From a virus (lineage: Duplodnaviria > Caudoviricetes): DNA of 64,000 nt. The stretch covers positions 1 to 64,000 of the IMG/VR virus record IMGVR_UViG_3300035670_000009, one strand, 5' to 3'. Under the pieces are notes generated by a model. That model saw only the letters and a list, made by a program, of their open reading frames with translations. It was not told where the DNA came from and did no database searches. Position numbers and translations under genes: made by a program. This document shows positions 11,825 to 38,707 of this stretch, in pieces; within the stretch, counting starts at the first letter, position 1; the number at the start of each line of letters is the position of its first letter.

Positions 11825-11897
11825 GCTGGCGTCCTTGCCATTGCCAATAGATATCTATGTACCGGGCCAGTTTACCAAATGCACTTACACCCGAGCT

Positions 11898-11945
11898 CTG
11901 ATAGCAAAAGGAAAGCGGAGCGCCGGGGCCGAAGCCCCGGGCGCT
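11898..11945 (-). terminator. Intrinsic terminator, cassette family copy 1
   Basis: GC hairpin with C(UUCG)G loop followed by UUUCCUUUUGCUAUCAG. Confidence 0.75.
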
Positions 11946-11969: not shown

Positions 11970-12224
11970 TCAGCTCGCAAGCGCGGCGAGGCCCGCCTGG
12001 GCGATCACCGCGTTGAGCGCGGCGCCGAACTCCTCGACGGCGGCGACGATCTCCTCCTCGGAGAACTTGCCGACGTTGGCCTGGATCGCCTCGAGCTTGG
12101 CGCGCGCCTTGGTCAGTCGCCGCGTGGCGCGCACCCGCTTGCCGAGCTGGATGCCCTCGTGTACGGCGCAGCCGCCGATCGCCACCACCGCCACAGCCGC
12201 CACCGCCTTGATGAGCATGTTCAT
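11970..12224 (-). CDS. Small protein with N-terminal hydrophobic helix (cassette gene)
   Basis: Own promoter, leader and terminator; AVAAVAVVAIGG segment. Confidence 0.7.
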   Translation of the reverse strand: MNMLIKAVAAVAVVAIGGCAVHEGIQLGKRVRATRRLTKARAKLEAIQANVGKFSEEEIVAAVEEFGAALNAVIAQAGLAALAS

Positions 12225-12308
12225 CGTATCAGCCCTTCAGGTATTCTAGCCTGCAACGCTCACCCGGCGTTGCTGCAGCAAGTCCTGACTACCTAATCAG
12301 GGCTCACT
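12225..12308 (-). promoter_or_regulatory. Structured 5' leader, subtype B copy 1 (CGGGUGA loop)
   Basis: Similar to 18381-18465; stem CAACGC-CGGGTGA-GCGTTG. Confidence 0.6.
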
Positions 12309-12310
12309 AG

Positions 12311-12339
12311 ATATGCCCGGCTGTGCGCTTTTCTTTAGC
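12311..12339 (-). promoter_or_regulatory. Phage promoter GCTAAA-N16-GGCATAT
   Basis: One of 7 exact-spacing copies, all upstream of minus-strand units. Confidence 0.8.
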
Positions 12340-12341
12340 TA

Positions 12342-12893
12342 TCAGCGCGCAGCTTGTTGCGCAAACTGCTGCGCCGCCCCGGTGTAATTAAACGGCTTGG
12401 CCGACGACGTGATGCCCGGCAACAAATCCCACATCGGCTTCTGATAGCCGACTCGTGCAAGCTGCGCTGTTTGCCCAGCGTTCAACGCAACGGGCGCGCC
12501 GCCGCGTAAAACCTGCACGCCGTTGACCAGAGTCCGACTCGGCTGCGCTACGCCATTGATAGTCTGCGTGATGTGATTGAGCTGCGGCGTGTGAATCATG
12601 GCGTTGTGCATCGTGTGCCCGCCGCCCAAGAGCGCCAGGCCCGTGACAGCTGGCTTGACGACGCGGTCCATAGCAAGCTGTTTGAGCTTTGTGCCCATAG
12701 GCGTGACAGGCGCCCGGCCGGTGACCATCTGCGTGGCCTTTTGCATGAGCGTAGGCTTTGGCGCAGCCACGGCAAGCCGTTTGAAAGCAGGCGCCAGAGA
12801 ATGACCCAGCGCATCGAGCAGAGCTTGCTTTTCGCGCGGGCTTGTTTGCGCGCCCAGAACGTAGCCGAACTCGTAAGCTGACAGCGCGCTCAT
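12342..12893 (-). CDS. Hypothetical virion-type protein (EKQA linker)
   Basis: ORF coupled to upstream gene (ATGA overlap); basic, Ala/Gln-rich. Confidence 0.6.
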   Translation of the reverse strand: MSALSAYEFGYVLGAQTSPREKQALLDALGHSLAPAFKRLAVAAPKPTLMQKATQMVTGRAPVTPMGTKLKQLAMDRVVKPAVTGLALLGGGHTMHNAMIHTPQLNHITQTINGVAQPSRTLVNGVQVLRGGAPVALNAGQTAQLARVGYQKPMWDLLPGITSSAKPFNYTGAAQQFAQQAAR

Positions 12894-15799
12894 TTTTTGC
12901 TCTTCTCTTTTTTCTGCCTGTCGGCCTTCGACTTCGATGCGGACTCTGACTCGTCGCGGTCAGAGTTGCTGTCTTCCGGCTTGTCGTCAGCGTACGTTCC
13001 CTTGCGCCGGGCTGCTTGCAACAGGCCATAAGCCTTGCCGCCGACCAGGCCAGCCAGTGCGCCATTCGGGCCGCCCAGCATTTTGCCCGCGTAGCTGCCG
13101 TACCCAGCAGGCAAAACTTTCTGCCGGTCGTGCAGAATCTCGTTGAGCTTGTTGGGCTTATCGCCGAGCGCCTTACGCAACGCCCGCTCAGAGCGCTGAT
13201 TTGCATTGGCCTCGTGAAGCAACGACACGAGCGGAATCTTGCCCGCCACGCTGTACAGATCTCGCTGGAGGCCCGTGCCCTGACGGCGCAACCAGGTAAG
13301 CAACTTGTTCTTGCCGGGCTCGTACTCGGGGACTTTCTTTGCGTTAAAGTCTAGCGCGTGGCCCAGCTCGTGTGAAAGCGCCGCAGGATTATTGCCGTAA
13401 AGATATGTGCTGTCGGAGAACGGGTTATAAGCGTTGCCGCGCGTCAGGGCCGTCGCGAGATAGCTCAGCGGCAACGAAGCGGTGCCAATTGCTTTGCCTG
13501 CAACGCTCGTACGGGGATTGGTCATCGTGCGCTTGATTTCCCGAAAGAAGCGCGGGCCGCCAAGATACACCTGATGATTACTCAAAGCTTGCGGGTCAGC
13601 CTGCGCCATGGTTTGCGCCAGCGCTTTCATTTTCTGCGCGCGAATGTCTTCTGGCGCAGCCTCGGGGTCAGTCACGCCCGCTGCGCCAGTCCAATCGGTT
13701 GGATTCACATGCAGCTGCGGCGAGAGAATGAGATTGCTGGGAAAGCCGCCGAGGTGCCCAAGCGTACTGCTCAGCGCCATGGCAGGCAGACCGCCGCGGG
13801 ACACGTCGATAGATATCTTTTCAGCCTGCGCGGCGCCGCGTGCAATAGCGAACAAGTCACACGCTGACTTTGGACGAATGCCCTGCAGCTGGCCCCACGT
13901 TGTCGCCTTCGTTGGCACATCGCCAAAGAACGACACAAACTCGCCCGTGCCGTACGACGAGGGAATACGCCCGGCAGCTTGGCCCACGCGTGTATAGCGC
14001 TGCATGGCTTTGCTCATTGCTGCCTGCGCGGCTTCAGTGTCGCCGAACCTGCGGAACATGTGAATGCCGTCGGGCATGCGCAGGCGCGTCGTGGGCGGCG
14101 CGATGGGGCGCGGCGTTCGGTTCCACAGAAACTCTGCCAGCTCGCTTAGCCTGGCCCCTGGTACCGCCTCGCGACGTGCAGCAGACAGCGCGGGCAATAC
14201 AGACGGATGCGCCGTTGACATACTCAGGACTTTTTTAGCCGCTGTTTGCGCTGCGCCAGCTACGCGAGAAGGCAACGCGGGCGCAGCTTCGCGGCCAAAG
14301 ATACCCGCCATCGTGCCCATGCGGCTGCTGAGATTTCGCGTCAAGTCGGTCATGAAGTTGGCAGACTTTTCACTCTGCGCAAGACCAGCTAGGACAGCCA
14401 GGTCTGTTACAGAACCGCATTTGCAGTTCCACTTACGCAAAGATTTGTTAATGCGCGAGTCGGGGTCTGATTTCGTTTCACTTCCCGTGTTCACGCGTTT
14501 CATGCCGCACATGCGCGCACAGAACGAATTTTGGCGCTTCTTACGCTCGCCGCTGGGGTTGCTCTCAGTGACGGGCGGCTTGAGATTCCCGCCGTGCGCT
14601 TTCTCGTAGCTCTTGCGGCCTTTTTCATTCAGGCCGCCTTCGGGGTTCTTGCCTTCGCTGCGCTGCCATGCGGGACTCGCTGCGCCTTGTTTCGCAAGCG
14701 CCGCCTCGATGAGCTGGCGCATCTCGGGCTTGAGCTGGCCCATGTGCGAGAACTCGAGTCTATTTGGCTGCTCCATGACGTGCATGCCGCGAATAGCCTT
14801 GAGCTTGCGCTTGTACTTGGGCACGTCTTCGCGCAGCACATAGGGATCCCGATCGAAGATTCGGCGCAGCCAGCCAGGCGGCTTGTCTACAACGTCGACG
14901 CCGTGCGTGTGCCCGTAGCGATATGCGTTGCCCACGTCGACGAGACCTTCGGCGCCGTACCAGCCGGGCATCTTTTCATCATTGCCGCCCAGAATGCTCG
15001 TAATCCCAGCGGTCTTTGAGCTATCAGGCGAGTTCTTCTGGCCGAACGCCGCGTTGCCATTGAGCTGGCCCTTGGCGCCCAGTGGCCCAAACGCCTGGAT
15101 GGGATTGTGCTGCGGATTCGAGCCGCCGCCGACCGGGCTGTTACTGGGTTGCGGCATACCTTGCTGCGCTGTTTGGGCGCCCTGCGCAGCTGACGCATTC
15201 GCCGGGGCGTTAACCGTACCCATGGGGGGCGTAATGTACGGAGACGGAATCGAGTACCTCTTCAACCCCATGTTTTGCGGGACAAAACGCGGCTCTCGAC
15301 CCTCGGCCAACGCTTGCGCAGTTTCCATTTCATTGCGAAAAGGCTTCGCCAAAACAGTGGAAATCTTTGCAAGCAAACTTTGCGCCGCCTCTTTATCGCA
15401 CTCTTCACGCTCACGCGATTCAGACTGCGAAGACTCGGCGTTGTCTAACTTTTGCTCGCCCTGCTCACGTTCTTGTCCGGCATACGTGGGTTTGTCGCTG
15501 TGGGGAATGTCCACTTTGACCAACGAATCCATAGCCGTTTTAGCGTTGGCGCTACCTTCTGTATTGCATATTAAAAAGGCACCGTTGCCCGAAAATTGTG
15601 CAAGCCCGGCCGAAAGAGCCGCGAGAGCGGCAGCTTTTTCTTTGCTATTGGCGCTGGGCTTTTTCTGGTCGTGGTCTTTCTTATCGGCGTACATCGGCAG
15701 ACCCTTGTTGGATTCGGGGTACTCATGCGCCCAACGTTTGGCGATGTCGGGATGCGCTGCCCATAGAAAACGGCGCTGCTTCTCAGACTGAAATGGCAT
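12890..15799 (-). CDS. 969-aa multi-module protein with C-terminal HExxH metallopeptidase-like motif
   Basis: Modules PFQSEKQRRFLWAAHP, AWQRSEGKNPEGGLN...FCARM...RKWNC and SHELGH...HEANAN, separated by KxA-type linkers. Confidence 0.65.
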   Translation of the reverse strand: MPFQSEKQRRFLWAAHPDIAKRWAHEYPESNKGLPMYADKKDHDQKKPSANSKEKAAALAALSAGLAQFSGNGAFLICNTEGSANAKTAMDSLVKVDIPHSDKPTYAGQEREQGEQKLDNAESSQSESREREECDKEAAQSLLAKISTVLAKPFRNEMETAQALAEGREPRFVPQNMGLKRYSIPSPYITPPMGTVNAPANASAAQGAQTAQQGMPQPSNSPVGGGSNPQHNPIQAFGPLGAKGQLNGNAAFGQKNSPDSSKTAGITSILGGNDEKMPGWYGAEGLVDVGNAYRYGHTHGVDVVDKPPGWLRRIFDRDPYVLREDVPKYKRKLKAIRGMHVMEQPNRLEFSHMGQLKPEMRQLIEAALAKQGAASPAWQRSEGKNPEGGLNEKGRKSYEKAHGGNLKPPVTESNPSGERKKRQNSFCARMCGMKRVNTGSETKSDPDSRINKSLRKWNCKCGSVTDLAVLAGLAQSEKSANFMTDLTRNLSSRMGTMAGIFGREAAPALPSRVAGAAQTAAKKVLSMSTAHPSVLPALSAARREAVPGARLSELAEFLWNRTPRPIAPPTTRLRMPDGIHMFRRFGDTEAAQAAMSKAMQRYTRVGQAAGRIPSSYGTGEFVSFFGDVPTKATTWGQLQGIRPKSACDLFAIARGAAQAEKISIDVSRGGLPAMALSSTLGHLGGFPSNLILSPQLHVNPTDWTGAAGVTDPEAAPEDIRAQKMKALAQTMAQADPQALSNHQVYLGGPRFFREIKRTMTNPRTSVAGKAIGTASLPLSYLATALTRGNAYNPFSDSTYLYGNNPAALSHELGHALDFNAKKVPEYEPGKNKLLTWLRRQGTGLQRDLYSVAGKIPLVSLLHEANANQRSERALRKALGDKPNKLNEILHDRQKVLPAGYGSYAGKMLGGPNGALAGLVGGKAYGLLQAARRKGTYADDKPEDSNSDRDESESASKSKADRQKKEKSKK

Positions 15800-15878
15800 G
15801 GCGCGCTTTCTGCGTTAAAGATCGTTGTATCTTCGCAAAACGCGTGCGCTACGGCAACGGCCAGAGTGTACGAGAGCG

Positions 15879-15930
15879 CTGATAGCAAAAGGAAAGCGGG
15901 AGGCCCGGGGACCGTAGCCCCCGGGCGCTC
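15879..15930 (-). terminator. Intrinsic terminator, cassette family copy 2
   Basis: Hairpin with C(UACG)G loop plus UUUCCUUUUGCUAUCAG. Confidence 0.75.
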
Positions 15931-15975
15931 CACGTCTTTCCTCGCGATGAGGAGCAGCCGCGTGACCGCATGGCA

Positions 15976-16431
15976 CTAGGCCTGGGCCAGACCGCCCTGC
16001 GCGCAGATCTGCTGCACGTCGGCCGGGACCTGCTGGGCCTGCGCCTCGGGGGCGTAGAAGCCCTGCATGACGCCGCGGCTGAGCGGGTTGCTGCTGACCG
16101 CGGTGCCCGCCTTGGTCGTGACGTCGAGGACGGCCCGGGCGCTGCGGCCGATGCCGTAGCCCGTGACCTCGACGCCCTTGACCGCCGCGTCCGCCGTCAC
16201 CGTCGCGGCCGTGATGGCCGTGTCGGCGATGAGACAACCGGCGTCGAGCACCGCGCCGGTGGCGACCACCGCGCAGCCCGTGGTGAAGTTGCCGACCTTC
16301 GCGACGCCCTCCACCACCTTCTTGTCGCCACCGGAGCGGCGCAGGAGGTAGGACGCGACGGCGACGGTGCCGACGGCGATGGCGACCTTGGTGGCGGACT
16401 TGGCGAACAGGTTGCTGATGACGTGGAGCAT
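15976..16431 (-). CDS. Small Ala/Val/Gly-rich protein with hydrophobic segment (cassette gene)
   Basis: ORF between leader and terminator; VAIAVGTVAVASYLL. Confidence 0.7.
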   Translation of the reverse strand: MLHVISNLFAKSATKVAIAVGTVAVASYLLRRSGGDKKVVEGVAKVGNFTTGCAVVATGAVLDAGCLIADTAITAATVTADAAVKGVEVTGYGIGRSARAVLDVTTKAGTAVSSNPLSRGVMQGFYAPEAQAQQVPADVQQICAQGGLAQA

Positions 16432-16540
16432 CTGATTCCTCGAGTGTTAAGCTCGAGGTCCCAGTGGAGACAGATGGGTTTTCTAAGCCCAGGTTTCGGC
16501 CTTGTGGATCACCCGTCCACAACAGCTATATCTGCTCCAT
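16432..16540 (-). promoter_or_regulatory. Structured 5' leader, subtype A copy 1
   Basis: Near-identical to 17703-17812 with compensatory changes. Confidence 0.7.
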
Positions 16541-16543
16541 CTC

Positions 16544-16572
16544 ATATGCCGGGTTTTTGGCTGTTATTTAGC
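16544..16572 (-). promoter_or_regulatory. Phage promoter GCTAAA-N16-GGCATAT
   Basis: Exact consensus and spacing. Confidence 0.8.
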
Positions 16573-16633
16573 TCGCCCCAGATCATATGCGTAATACACC
16601 GTTTTGCGCACGTTTACGCATATGCGCGGGGCG

Positions 16634-16688
16634 CTGATAGCAAAAGAAAACCGCACGCCAGCGGCCCTGCAGACCGCCAGCGTGGTTC
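16634..16688 (-). terminator. Intrinsic terminator, cassette family copy 3
   Basis: Hairpin plus UUUUCUUUUGCUAUCAG. Confidence 0.65.
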
Positions 16689-16948
16689 TCTTCGTTGGAG
16701 TTTCACCAACACCCCGTTTCTTTCCGGTTTCCCGGTTCAGCCTTTCGGCAACCCCGCGAGGGGCGAGTGAGTTTCTCGACCGTAAGCACCTGCTAAGACG
16801 GCAGGCCCTTACGGATTTGGTCGGCCTCAGTCGACCTATACGGCGCTCGTCTTCCCGAAGCCAGGGAAAACTCGGGCTACTCACATGCCGTCACATATGA
16901 GTAACCGTAGCGCCGCTTGGACTATCAGTGCAATATGATAATCCAGGT
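16640..16948 (-). ncRNA. Putative ~310-nt structured non-coding RNA
   Basis: Bounded by consensus promoter and terminator; serial hairpins (CC-GAAA-GG, CCGG-GAAA-CCGG, GGUCGAC/GCCGACC, CCUGC/GCAGG); no credible ORF. Confidence 0.55.
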
Positions 16949-16954
16949 CATTTA

Positions 16955-16983
16955 ATATGCCGGAGTTTTGGCCGGTATTTAGC
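16955..16983 (-). promoter_or_regulatory. Phage promoter GCTAAA-N16-GGCATAT
   Basis: Exact consensus and spacing. Confidence 0.8.
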
Positions 16984-16998
16984 TCGGCGTTCAGCGCG

Positions 16999-17053
16999 CT
17001 AATAGCAAAAGGAAACCGGGCGGCCGGGACCCGAAGGCCCCGGCGCACCCGGT
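16999..17053 (-). terminator. Intrinsic terminator, cassette family copy 4
   Basis: C(UUCG)G hairpin; 17002-17053 is identical to 17849-17900. Confidence 0.8.
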
Positions 17054-17099
17054 GTGAGTGCTGTATTTGCTAACGCGCCCAGCAAGGCGCGGTCGGAGT

Positions 17100-17702
17100 T
17101 CAGTCGCAGGCCGCGGCGGTTGCGGCCATGTCCGGCGCCACTTCGGCGCCAAACATGCACCCCGCCGCATCGAGGGCCTGCATGAGGCTCTCGATGTTCA
17201 GGAACTCTGACCTGGTATCGGTCCCGGTCTTCCACGCGAGCTCGCAGCTCGCGACGTCCCAGGCCTTGTAGCCGACCTGGTTGAACGTCAACTTCACTTC
17301 CACGGACCTGTTTTTGGTCCACGTGCCCTCCCACCAGAGCATTAGCTCGGTGGGCGCGACGAGGCAGCAGCCGTCCTCGTCAAAGTCGGGCTCGCAGCTC
17401 GTGCCGCCCGACGCCACGAACCCTCCGCGGGGCGGGTCGAAGACGCCGTCCTCCGCCTCCGCGGCGGAGCGGAGGATCCGGCGGGCCTCGGCCGCGATCA
17501 CGGCCGGGTTCCAGGTACCCGTCTCGGGCAGCTGGATTGCGCGGATTAACGGGTCGAGCCGCTGCCCGATCAGCCCGGCCCAGTAGGCCAAGAGAACGGG
17601 CAGCGCCCGCCGGACGTTGTCCGGCACCTCGGAGGCGTATGCCTCCGAGGCGAACCAGCCCAGCTTACCCTCTCTGTACTGGTCCGGAGCGAAGTTGAAC
17701 AT
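17100..17702 (-). CDS. Hypothetical protein (cassette gene)
   Basis: Start reassigned to MFNFAP at 17702 because the leader repeat ends at the same offset as in the 16431 gene. Confidence 0.7.
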   Translation of the reverse strand: MFNFAPDQYREGKLGWFASEAYASEVPDNVRRALPVLLAYWAGLIGQRLDPLIRAIQLPETGTWNPAVIAAEARRILRSAAEAEDGVFDPPRGGFVASGGTSCEPDFDEDGCCLVAPTELMLWWEGTWTKNRSVEVKLTFNQVGYKAWDVASCELAWKTGTDTRSEFLNIESLMQALDAAGCMFGAEVAPDMAATAAACD

Positions 17703-17812
17703 TTGATTCCTCGGGCGGTAAGCCCGAGGCTCCAGTGGAGTCAGCATGGGTTTTCTAAACCCAGGTTTCAGCTGCGCGGATCACCCGTCCGCAACAGCTA
17801 TAGCTGCTCCAC
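17703..17812 (-). promoter_or_regulatory. Structured 5' leader, subtype A copy 2
   Basis: Near-identical to 16432-16540. Confidence 0.7.
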
Positions 17813-17815
17813 GTT

Positions 17816-17844
17816 ATATGCCCGAATATGCCCAGGTATTTAGC
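17816..17844 (-). promoter_or_regulatory. Phage promoter GCTAAA-N16-GGCATAT
   Basis: Exact consensus; spacer contains a second GGGCATAT. Confidence 0.8.
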
Positions 17845-17845
17845 A

Positions 17846-17900
17846 CTGATAGCAAAAGGAAACCGGGCGGCCGGGACCCGAAGGCCCCGGCGCACCCGGT
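17846..17900 (-). terminator. Intrinsic terminator, cassette family copy 5
   Basis: 52 bp identical to copy 4. Confidence 0.8.
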
Positions 17901-17930
17901 TTGCATCCGACGAGAACAGAATTGATTGCG

Positions 17931-18380
17931 TCAATCGACGAGGCACCCGCCCCGGTTGTTGACGCTCCATTTCCAGCCCGCCCGGGCCACGCGGGCCAGC
18001 GCCATTTGATGCTCCACAGCCGCGTCCCAGGCTGCGTAGCCCAGGTCCGCGATAGGGACCTCAAGCGCAGCCGTGGTCTCGTCGTGGGCAGCGCATAGCG
18101 CCGCCCAGCGCTCCTCTTGTTCCTCGTAAGAGCCGACGACTTGGTCCATTTCGACGGCCCAGGCGGCCGCCTTGGTCTCCTGGTCGGAGACCGGAGCCTG
18201 GTCTAACCAGGCCCACGGCATGACCTCCGGATGGAAGTCAGCCGGGTCCTCGGCGTCTTCGAGGGGCTGAAGCCAGAACGTCCCCGTCCGGTCGACCGGC
18301 AGGACTTTGCCCCGCTCGATGACGCTGAGGATCGTGAGCACCAGGCACGCCGCCAAAGGAACCAGAACGAAACCAGCCAT
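17931..18380 (-). CDS. Small protein with N-terminal TM helix and acidic body (cassette gene)
   Basis: AGGAGG RBS; MAGFVLVPLAACLVLTILSVI. Confidence 0.75.
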   Translation of the reverse strand: MAGFVLVPLAACLVLTILSVIERGKVLPVDRTGTFWLQPLEDAEDPADFHPEVMPWAWLDQAPVSDQETKAAAWAVEMDQVVGSYEEQEERWAALCAAHDETTAALEVPIADLGYAAWDAAVEHQMALARVARAGWKWSVNNRGGCLVD

Positions 18381-18465
18381 GATAGTGGCCTCCTAGGTAT
18401 TCACAGCTTGCATCGCTCACCCGGCAACGCTGCAGCAAGACCCGCATACCTAGACGGGACTCATT
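18381..18465 (-). promoter_or_regulatory. Structured 5' leader, subtype B copy 2
   Basis: Similar to 12225-12308; GTTGC-CGGGTGA-GCGAT stem. Confidence 0.6.
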
Positions 18466-18467
18466 AC

Positions 18468-18496
18468 ATATGCCCGGGAAACGCGCTGGCTTTAGC
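18468..18496 (-). promoter_or_regulatory. Phage promoter GCTAAA-N16-GGCATAT
   Basis: Exact consensus and spacing. Confidence 0.8.
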
Positions 18497-18516
18497 CGAA
18501 TAGATATCTATTGACT

Positions 18517-18608
18517 GACTGCCTTGCTGAGAGCAGTCGGACTGCGCTCGTGAGAGCAGTCGGACTGCCTTGCTGAGAGCAGTCGGACTGCGCTCGTGAG
18601 AGCAGTCT
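18517..18608. repeat. 4 x 23-bp tandem repeat of alternating palindromic units
   Basis: gactgccttgctgagagcagtcg and gactgcgctcgtgagagcagtcg alternate ABAB; each unit has GACTGC...GCAGTC arms. Confidence 0.95.
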
Positions 18609-18971
18609 GCGTTGCTGCGCGGGCATGTACCAGATTCCAGAAAATGGAAAATGCGCCGTAAGTGTTTTATACGCATGGACTTACGGCACATATTTTTTGC
18701 GAAACACGTAAGTCTTTTGCTGCCCACATGTTGCGCAGTAAATGCTTTTGTTTTGTCAAGCTGTTTGGCTGTAAAAACCACTGCTCGTGTATCCGTAGCG
18801 CGGCCTGTTTTATTGTTTTGCCCAGCAATACCGCAAAAACAGTAATTTTTTGGATACACGGGTATGTATGAAATAGCTGAAGATTGTGTACACAATGCGC
18901 AGTTTGGCAGGCTTCGCAAGTTCCGCAGTTCGCGAATCGCGAATCTTCGTTCCTGCTGCCCCAAAAACCGC

Positions 18972-23130: not shown

Positions 23131-23203
23131 TGCGGCCCCCGGGAATCGAACCCGGAACCGAGGGATTAAAAGTCCCTTGCTCTGCCGATTGAGCTAGAGC
23201 CGC
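23131..23203 (-). tRNA. tRNA-Lys(UUU)
   Basis: GCGGCTC acceptor stem, AGGGA-CTTTTAA-TCCCT anticodon arm, GGTTCGATTCC T-arm; CCA not encoded. Confidence 0.95.
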
Positions 23204-23210
23204 GACCGAA

Positions 23211-23283
23211 AGCCAGCGGCCGGGAACGATCCGGCGACCTACGGTTTACAAAACCGTTGCTCTACCAATTGAGCTACGCTGGC
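23211..23283 (-). tRNA. tRNA-Thr(UGU), atypical T-loop
   Basis: GCCAGCG acceptor stem, ACGGT-TTTGTAA-ACCGT anticodon arm; T-loop reads ATCGTTC. Confidence 0.88.
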
Positions 23284-25704: not shown

Positions 25705-26181
25705 TCAGGAACCGACCCTGAAGACTTCAGGAACCAGGCCGATGGATCGGCCATAAATGGCGACTGAGTCTCCGGGATAAACCCGGCGCGAAACATCGTC
25801 TGTTTCCAGGTTATTGACCTGGACACGCCGCATGATGATCAATTCACGCGCCGTCGACGTGTCGCAGTCGTTCTTAGCCGCCACGAAGTCGACAAGCGAC
25901 TGCGCCTCGGACAGCGCCTGGTACTCGGCCAAGGCCGCCGGGTGACGCTGCAGCACGGCCAGCGCCTTGTCGAGCCGCCCGAGCGCTTCAGCGTGGAGCT
26001 TGTGCAGGTTGCGGGCAACACTCATCATGTTGCCCGCATTCTGCAGAAACACGTCGAGGTCGTCGATTTCGTGGGCCGCGATCGGCACCGTGAAATCGCC
26101 GTCGTATACTTTCGGCAACGACTGCTCGAGACGAATCAAGGCGGCCTTACATCTCTCAAATTGGTCATCAATCATCGCCAT
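25705..26181 (-). CDS. Protein with C-terminal S4-like RNA-binding domain
   Basis: STARELIIMRRVQVNN...VSRRVYPGDSVAI resembles S4 consensus (SEARQLI..G.V.VNG...PS..V.PGD.I). Confidence 0.55.
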   Translation of the reverse strand: MAMIDDQFERCKAALIRLEQSLPKVYDGDFTVPIAAHEIDDLDVFLQNAGNMMSVARNLHKLHAEALGRLDKALAVLQRHPAALAEYQALSEAQSLVDFVAAKNDCDTSTARELIIMRRVQVNNLETDDVSRRVYPGDSVAIYGRSIGLVPEVFRVGS

Positions 26182-27597: not shown

Positions 27598-27626
27598 ATA
27601 TGCCCGCAAATTGGCATTTTTTTAGC
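27598..27626 (-). promoter_or_regulatory. Phage promoter GCTAAA-N16-GGCATAT
   Basis: Exact consensus and spacing. Confidence 0.8.
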
Positions 27627-38678: not shown

Positions 38679-38707
38679 ATATGCCCGCAAAACGCGCACA
38701 ATTTAGC
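38679..38707 (-). promoter_or_regulatory. Phage promoter GCTAAA-N16-GGCATAT
   Basis: Exact consensus and spacing. Confidence 0.8.

What the first reader, a model, noticed from the sequence alone, without database searches (positions are those of the whole stretch)
12225..18465. Candidate new cis-regulatory RNA family: four leaders with GCUG-stem-CGGGUGA-stem-GC..GAA(U)ACCU core and compensatory changes
Seen: the loop CGGGTGA (plus-strand tcacccg at 12260, 16509, 17781, 18417) closes a stem in all four leaders. Subtype A copies covary: GTGGA/TCCAC vs GCGGA/TCCGC, and CCTCGAG/CTCGAGG vs CCTCGGG/CCCGAGG. They also have an enclosing (G/A)TGGAG/CTCCAC helix and a final hairpin 6 nt before the ATG that hides the GAGG RBS. 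In subtype B, an upstream loop (TAGGTA) is complementary to TACCT(G/A) right before the RBS, giving a possible pseudoknot or switch. I do not recognise it as a hammerhead or a known riboswitch. Inference: a riboswitch-like element or a translational operator bound by a phage protein.
Basis: partly seen in the sequence, partly recalled or inferred. Interest (0 to 1): 0.85.

Follow-up and report, generated by a model that had tools for sequence, protein, structure and literature searches.

The report
Structured leader RNAs in phage cassettes
Four small accessory genes of an uncultivated 204-kb phage each start with a related folded RNA leader whose hairpin keeps the loop CGGGUGA while its stem changes in a compensating way. 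This is a real RNA motif absent from Rfam and confined to one phage sub-clade, and its binding partner and function are not known.

Summary
The window is the first 64 kb of a 203,910-bp phage genome with terminal repeats. Exactly four sites in that genome match a covariance model of the core (50-55 bits; next best 13.5).

Each site lies after a clade-wide promoter (GCTAAA-N16-GGCATAT) and before an unrelated, high-GC3 ORFan that has its own terminator. No Rfam family reaches its threshold; P36 scores 23.9 bits against a cut-off of 36.

Protein-guided retrieval of syntenic contigs gave 15 distinct copies from several phage lineages. The loop is CGGGUGA in 14 and UGGGUGA in one. Six of the seven stem pairs change on both sides, and 98% of cells are paired. 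The enclosing helix, the 5' hairpin and the RBS hairpin also covary.

Everything outside the apical hairpin is modular: a three-way junction, a rod or a pseudoknot/switch. That argues against a small-molecule aptamer and for a hairpin recognised by a trans-acting factor, coupled to occlusion of the ribosome-binding site.

The motif is absent from 27 more distant relatives, five of them complete genomes, and from pattern scans of the viral, metagenome and genome collections. Cassettes come and go between strains at repeated terminators, as with T4 PeSL cassettes.

Verdict: a new lineage-restricted cis-acting leader family of moderate interest, with the mechanism inferred only.

The parts
18468..18496 (-). 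Promoter of cassette B1 (GCTAAAGCC...GGGCATAT), a two-block clade-wide motif
   Evidence: The same motif is strand-specific in 23 of 27 related contigs, with near-zero hits for the reversed-pattern control.
18381..18467 (-). Leader B1. Its parts are: P0 hairpin 18441-18458 with loop CUAGGUAU; P2a 18434-18436 paired with 18406-18408; P2b 18424-18430 paired with 18410-18416; loop CGGGUGA 18417-18423; P1' AUACCUAG 18393-18400; SD AGGAGG 18389-18394.
   Evidence: 54.9 bits.
17931..18380 (-). Cargo gene B1p: 149 aa with an N-terminal hydrophobic segment, GC3 0.81 and no Pfam or PHROG match. Its terminator lies at about 17863-17881.
17816..17844 (-). Promoter of cassette A1
17703..17815 (-). Leader A1. 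Its parts are: P1 17803-17811 paired with 17736-17745; P2a/P2b 17771-17798 with loop CGGGUGA 17781-17787; P3 17748-17762; RBS hairpin 17709-17729 holding GAGG.
   Evidence: 53.7 bits. The fold has z = -6.5 against shuffles.
17100..17702 (-). Cargo gene A1p: 200 aa, GC3 0.90, no family. Its terminator at 17016-17034 is an exact duplicate of the one after B1p.
   Evidence: The whole cassette is absent in strains L332 and X8.
16544..16572 (-). Promoter of cassette A2
16432..16543 (-). Leader A2. Its parts are: P1 16530-16539 paired with 16465-16475; hairpin with loop CGGGUGA 16509-16515; RBS hairpin 16438-16458.
   Evidence: 54.6 bits.
15976..16431 (-). Cargo gene A2p: 151 aa with a hydrophobic N-terminus, GC3 0.97. 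A terminator follows at about 15890-15930.
12311..12339 (-). Promoter of cassette B2
12225..12310 (-). Leader B2. Its parts are: P0 CCUGA/UCAGG with loop UUAGGUAG; hairpin GCAACGC/GCGUUGC with loop CGGGUGA 12260-12266; UACCUGA pairing with the P0 loop; AGCCCU/AGGGCU occluding the RBS.
   Evidence: 50.2 bits. The fold has z = -2.8.
11970..12224 (-). Cargo gene B2p: 84 aa with a lipoprotein-like N-terminus (...AIGGC), GC3 0.94. Its terminator lies at about 11900-11945.

Best explanation
**What it is.** These are paralogous members of a lineage-restricted family of structured 5'-untranslated leaders. Each belongs to a self-contained accessory cassette: a phage-specific promoter, the leader, an unrelated ORFan and a terminator.

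**Conserved module.** The conserved part is an apical hairpin. It has an outer 3-bp helix GCU/RGC, a small internal loop, a 7-bp stem that covaries freely, and an essentially invariant 7-nt loop CGGGUGA.

**How it most likely works.** I read the hairpin as the recognition site (operator) for a trans-acting factor, most likely an RNA-binding protein of the phage or host.
- The variable surroundings couple occupancy of the hairpin to translation initiation.
- An enclosing helix P1 ties the 5' end to the sequence just upstream of the Shine-Dalgarno (SD).
- In subtype B this helix competes with, or forms a pseudoknot with, a 5' hairpin P0, and it can extend to pair with the SD.
- In subtype A a separate covarying hairpin buries the GAGG SD.

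**Shown here:**
- The RNA structure and its strand.
- Loop conservation against stem covariation.
- The position between promoter and RBS.
- The modular context.
- Cassette turnover between strains.

**Inferred, not shown:**
- The transcription start.
- That a factor binds the loop.
- That the output is translational.
For: **Specificity.** There are four hits of 50-55 bits in 204 kb, and the next best scores 13.5 bits.

**Apical hairpin.** Fifteen distinct copies from the window phage, two strain variants (L130, L332) and about five further lineages (the L325, L329/L337, L334, L335/L336/L339 and L338 groups) were collected.
- The loop is CGGGUGA in 14 and UGGGUGA in one.
- 97.8% of cells are paired, against 78% in shuffles and 28-45% when partners are slid.
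- Six of seven P2b pairs change on both sides.

**Other helices.**
- P1 and the RBS hairpin of subtype A have 7 pairs with double changes; 0 of 500 shuffles reach this.
- P0 and the loop-to-tail pairing of subtype B have 5 pairs with double changes.
- P1 is wholly replaced in A3/A4 (GUGAACC/GGUUCAC) and in A6 (UGGUAACGG/CCGUUACCA).

**RNA on the sense strand.** G-U pairs in the stems would be C-A mismatches on the other strand.

**Independent cargo.** The same leader types precede unrelated proteins with no significant pairwise similarity, and these have GC3 of 0.81-0.97 against 0.64-0.73 for core genes.

**Comparison with sister leader types.** Orthologous genes in other lineages carry leaders with the same architecture but short loops. 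The type C loop varies (GCUU/GCAU/GCUC), and the three type D copies read GUGU, GUGU and GUUU. This shows that the CGGGUGA loop specifically is under selection.
Against: - No binding factor has been identified.
- The phage's own CsrA homologue is present in all five complete relatives that lack the hairpin. The loop also lacks the GGA core that CsrA proteins recognise.
- In A3 and A4 the predicted SD (AGGAG) is not occluded by the P1-P2 domain. Translational coupling is therefore not universal.
- Leader B1 is no more stable than shuffled sequences (z = -0.43).
- All copies come from one sub-clade. Part of the conservation could reflect shared ancestry or gene conversion, and the shuffle controls do not correct for relatedness.
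Confidence: 0.42

Rival explanations
1. Passive structural leader. The P1-P2 rod of about 20-25 bp only protects the 5' end from decay, or serves as a host RNase III or RNase E processing site, as in the T7 and lambda N leaders. There is no dedicated regulator, and the loop is conserved for folding or processing reasons.
For: - All leader types in the clade (A, B, C, D and those of more distant relatives) begin with a helix close to the inferred 5' end, and their helices add up to about two turns.
- Types C and D keep the architecture with other loops.
- The phage has no RNase III gene of its own, so a host enzyme would act.
Against: - A 7-nt loop that is almost invariant across 15 copies, while 6 of 7 adjacent stem pairs change, is more than folding or RNase III recognition requires.
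- The short loops of type C drift freely between close relatives.
Confidence: 0.2
2. Ribosome stand-by or SD-mimic site. The exposed loop GGGUGA (GGGUGAUCC in subtype A) pairs with the 3' tail of 16S rRNA. It holds a 30S subunit near a start site whose real SD is folded away.
For: - The loop alone is predicted to pair with a 16S 3' tail at -7.9 kcal/mol. The real SDs give -10.2 (B1) and -5.9 (A1).
- The SD is buried in a stable hairpin in A1, A2, A5 and A6.
Against: - The 16S tail used was recalled from memory, and the host is unknown.
- The match was noticed after the fact.
- Selection for SD-like pairing would tolerate other SD-like loops, yet C1 and A7 are also fixed.
- Types C and D work with non-SD loops.
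- In A3 and A4 the SD is open.
Confidence: 0.12
3. Riboswitch. The leader binds a small molecule or ion and switches between P0 with the SD open and extended P1 with the SD closed.
For: - Subtype B has two covarying, mutually competing helices next to the SD. This is the layout of an expression platform.
- No known family matches, so it would be an orphan.
Against: - Only a simple hairpin is conserved. P3, P0 and the linker are gained, lost or replaced between copies.
- The genes controlled are unrelated ORFans.
- The motif is absent outside one phage sub-clade.
Confidence: 0.08
4. The conservation is mainly at the DNA level. Promoter, leader and terminator are homology modules that let cassettes recombine, like PeSLs, or the RNA acts on the transcribing polymerase, like put or nut antitermination.
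For: - Strain differences map to the repeated terminators and promoters. The A1 cassette is precisely absent in L332 and X8, with a joint from 17053 to 17928 at the duplicated terminator.
- A 539-bp deletion from 12342 to 12882 is seen in L130, X5 and X6.
- The 5' half of the leader, next to the promoter, is more conserved than the 3' half.
Against: - Compensatory changes and G-U pairs show selection on RNA pairing, not on DNA identity.
- The indel joints lie at terminators, not in the hairpin.
- There is no boxA-like element, every cassette has its own promoter, and terminators are retained.
Confidence: 0.08

Closest known systems
Phage translational operator hairpins (MS2/PP7 coat-protein operators, T4 gp43 and RegA operators, Mu Com site upstream of mom); from general knowledge
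   Same: - A short hairpin in a 5' leader whose loop sequence is fixed while the stem covaries.
- It is linked to a helix that hides the ribosome-binding site.
- It is phage-specific and present in a few copies per genome.
   Different: - No cognate protein is known.
- The loop sequence CGGGUGA matches none of these operators.
- The hairpin lies 30-70 nt upstream of the start codon rather than over it.
- It serves four or more unrelated accessory genes.
PeSL cassettes of T4-type phages (Arbiol et al. 2010, PMC2839356; Comeau et al. 2014, PMC4122927) and lambdoid 'morons'
   Same: - Arrays of small ORFans lie in a variable region, each flanked by a conserved promoter and a conserved stem-loop terminator.
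- Gain, loss and replacement between close strains occur at the repeated regulatory sequences.
   Different: - PeSLs are sigma-70-like early promoters plus terminators and have no conserved structured leader.
- Here a non-canonical two-block promoter is followed by a covarying 85-115-nt leader.
- Mini-circles were not tested.
Rfam RF01679 (Pseudomonas sRNA P36)
   Same: Copy A1 aligns over the whole 61-nt model: a hairpin GCGGACG..CCGC, then AAAC, then a second hairpin.
   Different: - The score is 23.9 bits against a gathering score of 36.
- Only one of the four copies is hit.
- The control genomes give sub-threshold hits in 11 of 14.
- It is not a member.
Small pseudoknot or hairpin riboswitches (preQ1-I, guanidine-II); from general knowledge
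   Same: Small size, and a loop-to-tail pairing adjacent to the SD in subtype B.
   Different: - No Rfam hit.
- No conserved pocket-forming junction.
- No coherent gene set.
- No distribution beyond one phage lineage.

Membership tests
Any Rfam 15 family | Covariance-model score at or above the family's gathering threshold | tested here: not met
   only a tmRNA and two tRNAs are found in the window. (E up to 10, region 12100-18700): the best hit is P36 at 23.9 bits, below 36, and there is no ribozyme or riboswitch hit.
Rfam RF01679 P36 | At least 36 bits against the P36 model | tested here: not met
   23.9 bits for A1 only. A2, B1 and B2 are not reported even at E up to 10.
Hammerhead ribozyme | Three helices around the CUGANGA and GAAA core with a UH cleavage site | tested here: not met
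   A1 and A2 have a three-way junction and GAAAC, but no CUGANGA: J1/2 is (C/A)UAUA. There is no Rfam hammerhead hit at E up to 10. A3, A4 and subtype B lack the junction altogether.
Riboswitch (generic) | Aptamer architecture and junction nucleotides conserved across members | tested here: not met
   Only the P2 hairpin is shared. P3 is present in A1, A2, A5 and A6 and absent in A3, A4 and B. P0 occurs only in B. The linker reads GAAACC, GAAUACC, UUUGUAUAUCU or ACACC.
Riboswitch (generic) | Association with genes of one pathway or ligand | tested here: not met
   The four cargo proteins are unrelated to each other and have no Pfam or PHROG family. L338 adds another cargo.
Protein-binding operator hairpin | Conserved loop with a covarying stem, in the 5' UTR of the regulated genes | tested here: met
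   among 15 distinct copies the loop is invariant except C1 to U in one. Six of seven stem pairs show double changes. All copies lie between promoter and start codon.
Protein-binding operator hairpin | A cognate RNA-binding protein that binds the hairpin | not testable with these tools
   The only candidates seen are a phage CsrA homologue and an S4-domain protein. Neither is linked to the hairpin by co-occurrence or by a known binding motif.
CsrA/RsmA target | GGA in the loop of a leader hairpin plus GGA at or near the SD | tested here: inconclusive
   The loop CGGGUGA has no GGA. A-type stems end in GGA next to the loop, and B-type hairpins have none. Most SDs contain GGA. CsrA is present in relatives that lack the hairpin.
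PeSL-like or moron expression cassette | A conserved promoter and a conserved terminator flanking variable ORFans, with strain-level indels at these repeats | tested here: met
   Promoters. Terminators with the conserved tail TTTCCTTTTGCTATCAG. Indels.
Lambda-type nut site | boxA plus a boxB hairpin with a GNRA-like pentaloop, and an N-type protein | not tested
   By eye there is no boxA-like element, and the loop is 7 nt. No search for N-like proteins was made.

The most novel reading that the evidence does not exclude
The CGGGUGA hairpin is the operator of a previously unknown phage post-transcriptional regulon. A single RNA-binding factor would switch the whole set of hypervariable accessory cassettes on or off at one stage of infection, and new cargo genes would join the regulon simply by recombining behind the promoter-leader module. 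The factor could be a phage protein such as the clade's own CsrA homologue with altered specificity, or the S4-domain protein.
Probability: 0.15. Interest if true: 0.7.

Novelty: new member of a known kind. Interest (0 to 1): 0.45.

Why it matters
Accessory ('moron') genes are where phages keep host-takeover, exclusion and anti-defence functions, and how their expression is coordinated is poorly known outside model phages.

Here unrelated, apparently acquired genes share a portable promoter-plus-leader module that carries a sequence-specific hairpin. This gives a concrete and testable handle: the hairpin can be used as bait to find the regulator. It is also a search model (R3) for annotating such cassettes in metagenomic phages.

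The motif is so far confined to one sub-clade of uncultivated phages seen in subsurface, freshwater, aquatic and marine metagenomes, and no function has been demonstrated. Its immediate reach is therefore limited.

Tried and rejected
**Searches for the motif elsewhere**
- Pattern scans for the core found only chance matches without stems or nothing. These covered viral contigs, metagenome contigs and genome contigs.
- Models R2 and R3 on 27 contigs related through the DNA polymerase gave nothing above 19.5 bits.
- No DNA similarity to GenBank phages. The DNA polymerase is at most 26% identical to any isolate.
- The search for related loci with the 969-aa neighbour found nothing.

**Alignment**
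- MAFFT misaligned subtypes A and B. This was solved by aligning to a covariance model.

**Expression data**
- No RNA holder is listed among public runs.
- The laid DNA contigs gave strain indels, but the table of single-letter differences was truncated before the leaders.

**Candidate partners**
- Trans pairing with the neighbouring ~310-nt ORF-less RNA: duplex energies are no better than shuffles. The one 7-nt complement, UCACUCG, is expected by chance and changes in strain L332.
- ToxI-like antitoxin mimicry: this resemblance was recalled from memory. No ToxI hit appeared in the Rfam scan at E up to 10, and the sequence could not be verified in PMC3475682. Dropped.
- T4 RegA, a sigma-70 region 2 domain and RNase III were not found in the phage.
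- The small genes just upstream of the cassette array differ between lineages, so there is no co-occurring regulator there.

**Mini-ORFs**
- The 5'-terminal mini-ORF (NUG + 3 codons + UAG) in subtype B was rejected. The start is AUG, GUG or CUG, and the spacing follows from the geometry of the P0 hairpin.
Full report
**Context**

The window is bases 1-64000 of a 203,910-bp virus record with direct terminal repeats and 57.7% GC. Nearly all genes lie on the minus strand. It carries a family-A DNA polymerase, helicases, a tmRNA and two tRNAs. It has no close cultured relative: there is no blastn match to GenBank phages, and the polymerase is at most 26% identical to any isolate.

**Checking the observation**

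CGGGTGA occurs 23 times in the genome. Only the four minus-strand sites at 12260, 16509, 17781 and 18417 are flanked by a 6-7 bp inverted repeat; all the others have 0-2 bp.

Each site lies 29-45 nt downstream of a two-block motif, GCTAAA-N16-GGCATAT, and 37-79 nt upstream of an ATG. The leaders run as follows:

| Leader | Coordinates (to the ATG) | Length |
|---|---|---|
| B1 | 18467-18378 | 90 nt |
| A1 | 17815-17700 | 116 nt |
| A2 | 16543-16429 | 115 nt |
| B2 | 12310-12222 | 89 nt |

A covariance model built on the shared core finds exactly these four places in the genome at 50-55 bits, against 13.5 bits for the next best.

**What surrounds the leaders**

The motif GCTAAA-N16-GGCATAT is a promoter-like element shared by the whole clade.
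- It occurs 1-10 times in 23 of 27 contigs related through the DNA polymerase, always on the coding strand.
- The reversed-pattern control gives almost no hits.
- It often occurs in tight clusters.
- It does not fit the sigma-70 consensus, and no sigma-70 region 2 domain was found in the phage. Which polymerase form uses it is unknown, and the start site, about 5-8 nt after GGCATAT, is inferred.

Each of the four leaders precedes a small ORF of 149, 200, 151 or 84 aa.
- None has a Pfam or PHROG match.
- They show no significant similarity to one another.
- Their GC3 is 0.81-0.97, against 0.64-0.73 for neighbouring core genes.
- Each is followed by a strong terminator with the conserved tail TTTCCTTTTGCTATCAG.

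These are self-contained accessory cassettes. A fifth promoter, at 16955, drives an ORF-less RNA of about 310 nt.

**Known families**

No Rfam family reaches its threshold. With permissive settings the only hit of note is P36 (RF01679). It scores 23.9 bits against a cut-off of 36, for A1 only, and the same model gives sub-threshold hits in 11 of 14 control genomes. No ribozyme or riboswitch model hits at E up to 10. The hammerhead core CUGANGA is absent.

**Relatives**

Direct pattern scans of the viral, metagenome and genome collections returned only stem-less chance matches or nothing. The model found nothing in 27 polymerase-related contigs, five of which are complete genomes.

Homologues of the cargo proteins led instead to syntenic contigs.
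- L131 is the same phage from another sample.
- L130 and L332 are strains about 95% identical.
- L325-L328, L329-L331/L337, L334, L335, L336, L338 and L339 are more distant. Their B1p homologues are 39-54% identical.

All of these carry A- and/or B-type leaders at the same place, giving 15 distinct core sequences.

The apical hairpin in these 15 sequences behaves as follows.
- The loop is CGGGUGA in 14 and UGGGUGA in one.
- The 7-bp stem takes the forms GCGUUGC/GCGAUGC, GCGUCGC/GCGAUGC, GCGUUGC/GCGACGC, GCAACGC/GCGUUGC, GCGGCGC/GCGCCGC, UUGCGGA/UCCGCGC, UUGUGGA/UCCACAA, CUGCGGA/UCUGCGG and UUGGA/UCCAA.
- 97.8% of cells pair, against 78% in shuffles and 28-45% with slid partners.
- Six of seven pairs change on both sides.

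Two caveats apply. The alignment was fitted to the model, and the sequences are related.

**The rest of the fold**

*Subtype A, three-way form (A1, A2, A5, A6).* An enclosing helix P1 holds the hairpin P2 and a short P3, and is followed by a hairpin that buries the GAGG or GGAG ribosome-binding site. Seven pairs change on both sides, and 0 of 500 shuffles reach this. In A6 the whole P1 is replaced by UGGUAACGG/CCGUUACCA.

*Subtype A, rod form (A3, A4).* P1 is GUGAACC/GGUUCAC and there is no P3. The 3' strand is either UAUAUCU, which pairs with AGAUAUA, or a B-like GAAUACCU. The SD AGGAG is unpaired and is followed by a hairpin before the AUG.

*Subtype B.*
- A 5' hairpin P0 covaries as CCCGU/GCGGG, CCUGA/UCAGG, CCCGC/GCGGG and UCACG/CGUGA.
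- P0 presents the loop (C/U)UAGGUA(U/G), which is complementary to (A)UACCU(A/G)(G/A) immediately before the SD. This pairing includes a C-G to U-A double change and U-A to U-G changes.
- In minimum-energy folds this pairing either replaces P0 and extends to pair CC(C) with the SD (B1, B2, B4), or P0 forms instead (B3, L130).
- P0 and the long-range helix are therefore either a pseudoknot or alternative states. This is the only riboswitch-like trait.

*Thermodynamic support* is strong for A1 (z = -6.5), moderate for A2 and B2 (about -2.8) and absent for B1 (-0.4).

*Strand.* G-U pairs in several helices would be C-A mismatches on the opposite strand, so the structure belongs to the sense RNA.

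**Sister leader types**

In L329, L335, L336 and L337 the B1p orthologue has a different leader (type C). At the B2 position, L325, L329 and L339 have another (type D). Both keep the plan P1 - GCU.. - hairpin - ..AGC - (G)AA(A/C)ACC - P1' - SD. Their apical loops are short tetraloops: type C reads GCUU, GCAU or GCUC, and the three type D copies read GUGU, GUGU and GUUU.

More distant relatives have yet other structured leaders after the same promoter. A structured leader is therefore the rule for this promoter class, and the A and B types are the subset with a fixed 7-nt loop.

**Cassette dynamics**
- In L332 and in public run X8 the whole A1 cassette is missing. The joint runs from 17053 to 17928, at the exactly duplicated terminator.
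- In L130, X5 and X6 a 539-bp deletion (12342-12882) removes the 183-aa ORF between short repeats.
- In L130 the B2 leader core and gene are replaced.
- The 3' parts of the B1 and A2 genes are replaced in some strains.

This mirrors the PeSL-mediated shuffling described for T4-type phages (PMC2839356; PMC4122927).

**Mechanism**

The one element conserved in sequence across all contexts is a simple hairpin loop, while stems and surroundings are free to change. That is the signature of a recognition hairpin for a trans-acting factor rather than of a ligand pocket. Its setting inside helices that touch or hide the ribosome-binding site points to control of translation initiation, and perhaps of mRNA stability. 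I put this at about 0.4.

I could not identify the factor.
- The phage does encode a CsrA homologue of 69 aa, scoring 78.6 bits with Arg44 retained.
- That homologue is also in all five complete relatives that lack the hairpin, and the loop has no GGA.
- An S4-domain protein near the tmRNA is a second, equally unlinked candidate.

The rival explanations are:
- a passive stabiliser or processing rod (0.2);
- an SD-like stand-by loop (0.12). The loop would pair with a remembered 16S tail about as well as a real SD, but this is post hoc;
- a riboswitch (0.08);
- a DNA-level or antitermination role (0.08).

**Verdict**

This is a genuine structured leader RNA family that is not in Rfam, and its covariation survives a larger alignment. 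It is restricted to one sub-clade of uncultivated phages. The best current reading is an operator hairpin shared by mobile accessory cassettes. It is a new member of a known kind, and its interest is moderate.

Noticed in passing
G000:C1:104957-105103 (minus strand; outside the window), locus L342:1438-1647: The phage encodes a 69-aa CsrA/RsmA homologue (PF02599, 78.6 bits). All five complete related genomes have one too, so a post-transcriptional regulator is a core gene of this jumbo-phage clade.
   Followed up: partly
window 16640-16948 (minus strand): An ORF-less RNA of about 310 nt has its own GCTAAA-N16-GGCATAT promoter (16955-16983) and its own terminator. It folds very stably (-153.9 kcal/mol) and is conserved in strains L130 and L332. 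It has no Rfam match and shows no evidence of pairing with the leaders.
   Followed up: partly
window 12311-12339, 16544-16572, 16955-16983, 17816-17844, 18468-18496, 27598-27626, 38679-38707; also G000 107535 and 151063: A clade-wide, strand-specific two-block promoter-like motif, GCTAAA-N16-GGCATAT followed by nTAnTGA. It is not sigma-70-like, and no sigma-70 region 2 domain was found in the phage.
   Followed up: partly
window ~18500-18512 and ~11858-11870; L325:9870-9882, L329:10597-10608, L338, L339: The 12-bp palindrome ATAGATATCTAT recurs just upstream of several cassette promoters in different lineages. It may be an operator for a DNA-binding regulator.
   Followed up: no
window 25705-26181 (minus strand); orthologue L325:843-1220: A small protein with an S4 RNA-binding domain lies a few kb from the phage tmRNA (23299-23661) and two tRNAs (23131-23283). 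It scores 32.5 bits in the orthologue and 18.3 bits, below the cut-off, in the window copy.
   Followed up: partly
window 17054-17927 and 12343-12881: Presence/absence differences between strains. The A1 cassette is missing in L332 and run X8, with the joint at the exactly duplicated terminator. A 539-bp deletion removes the 183-aa ORF in L130, X5 and X6.
   Followed up: yes
L325:10586-10684, L329:10658-10755: In the rod-type A leaders the SD AGGAG lies about 27 nt from the AUG, with a covarying hairpin (CCCGA../..UCGGG) in between. This may be a split ribosome-binding site brought together by the hairpin, as described for some T4 genes.
   Followed up: no
L325:5687-6019: A related phage encodes a cREC_REC domain (cyclic-phosphate processing receiver, PF20274, 70.8 bits) in the same variable region.
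   Followed up: no
L338:1-45: A B-type hairpin, cut by the contig end, precedes yet another cargo gene (138 aa, MTTFNATQF...). The leader module therefore serves more gene families than the four in the window.
   Followed up: no
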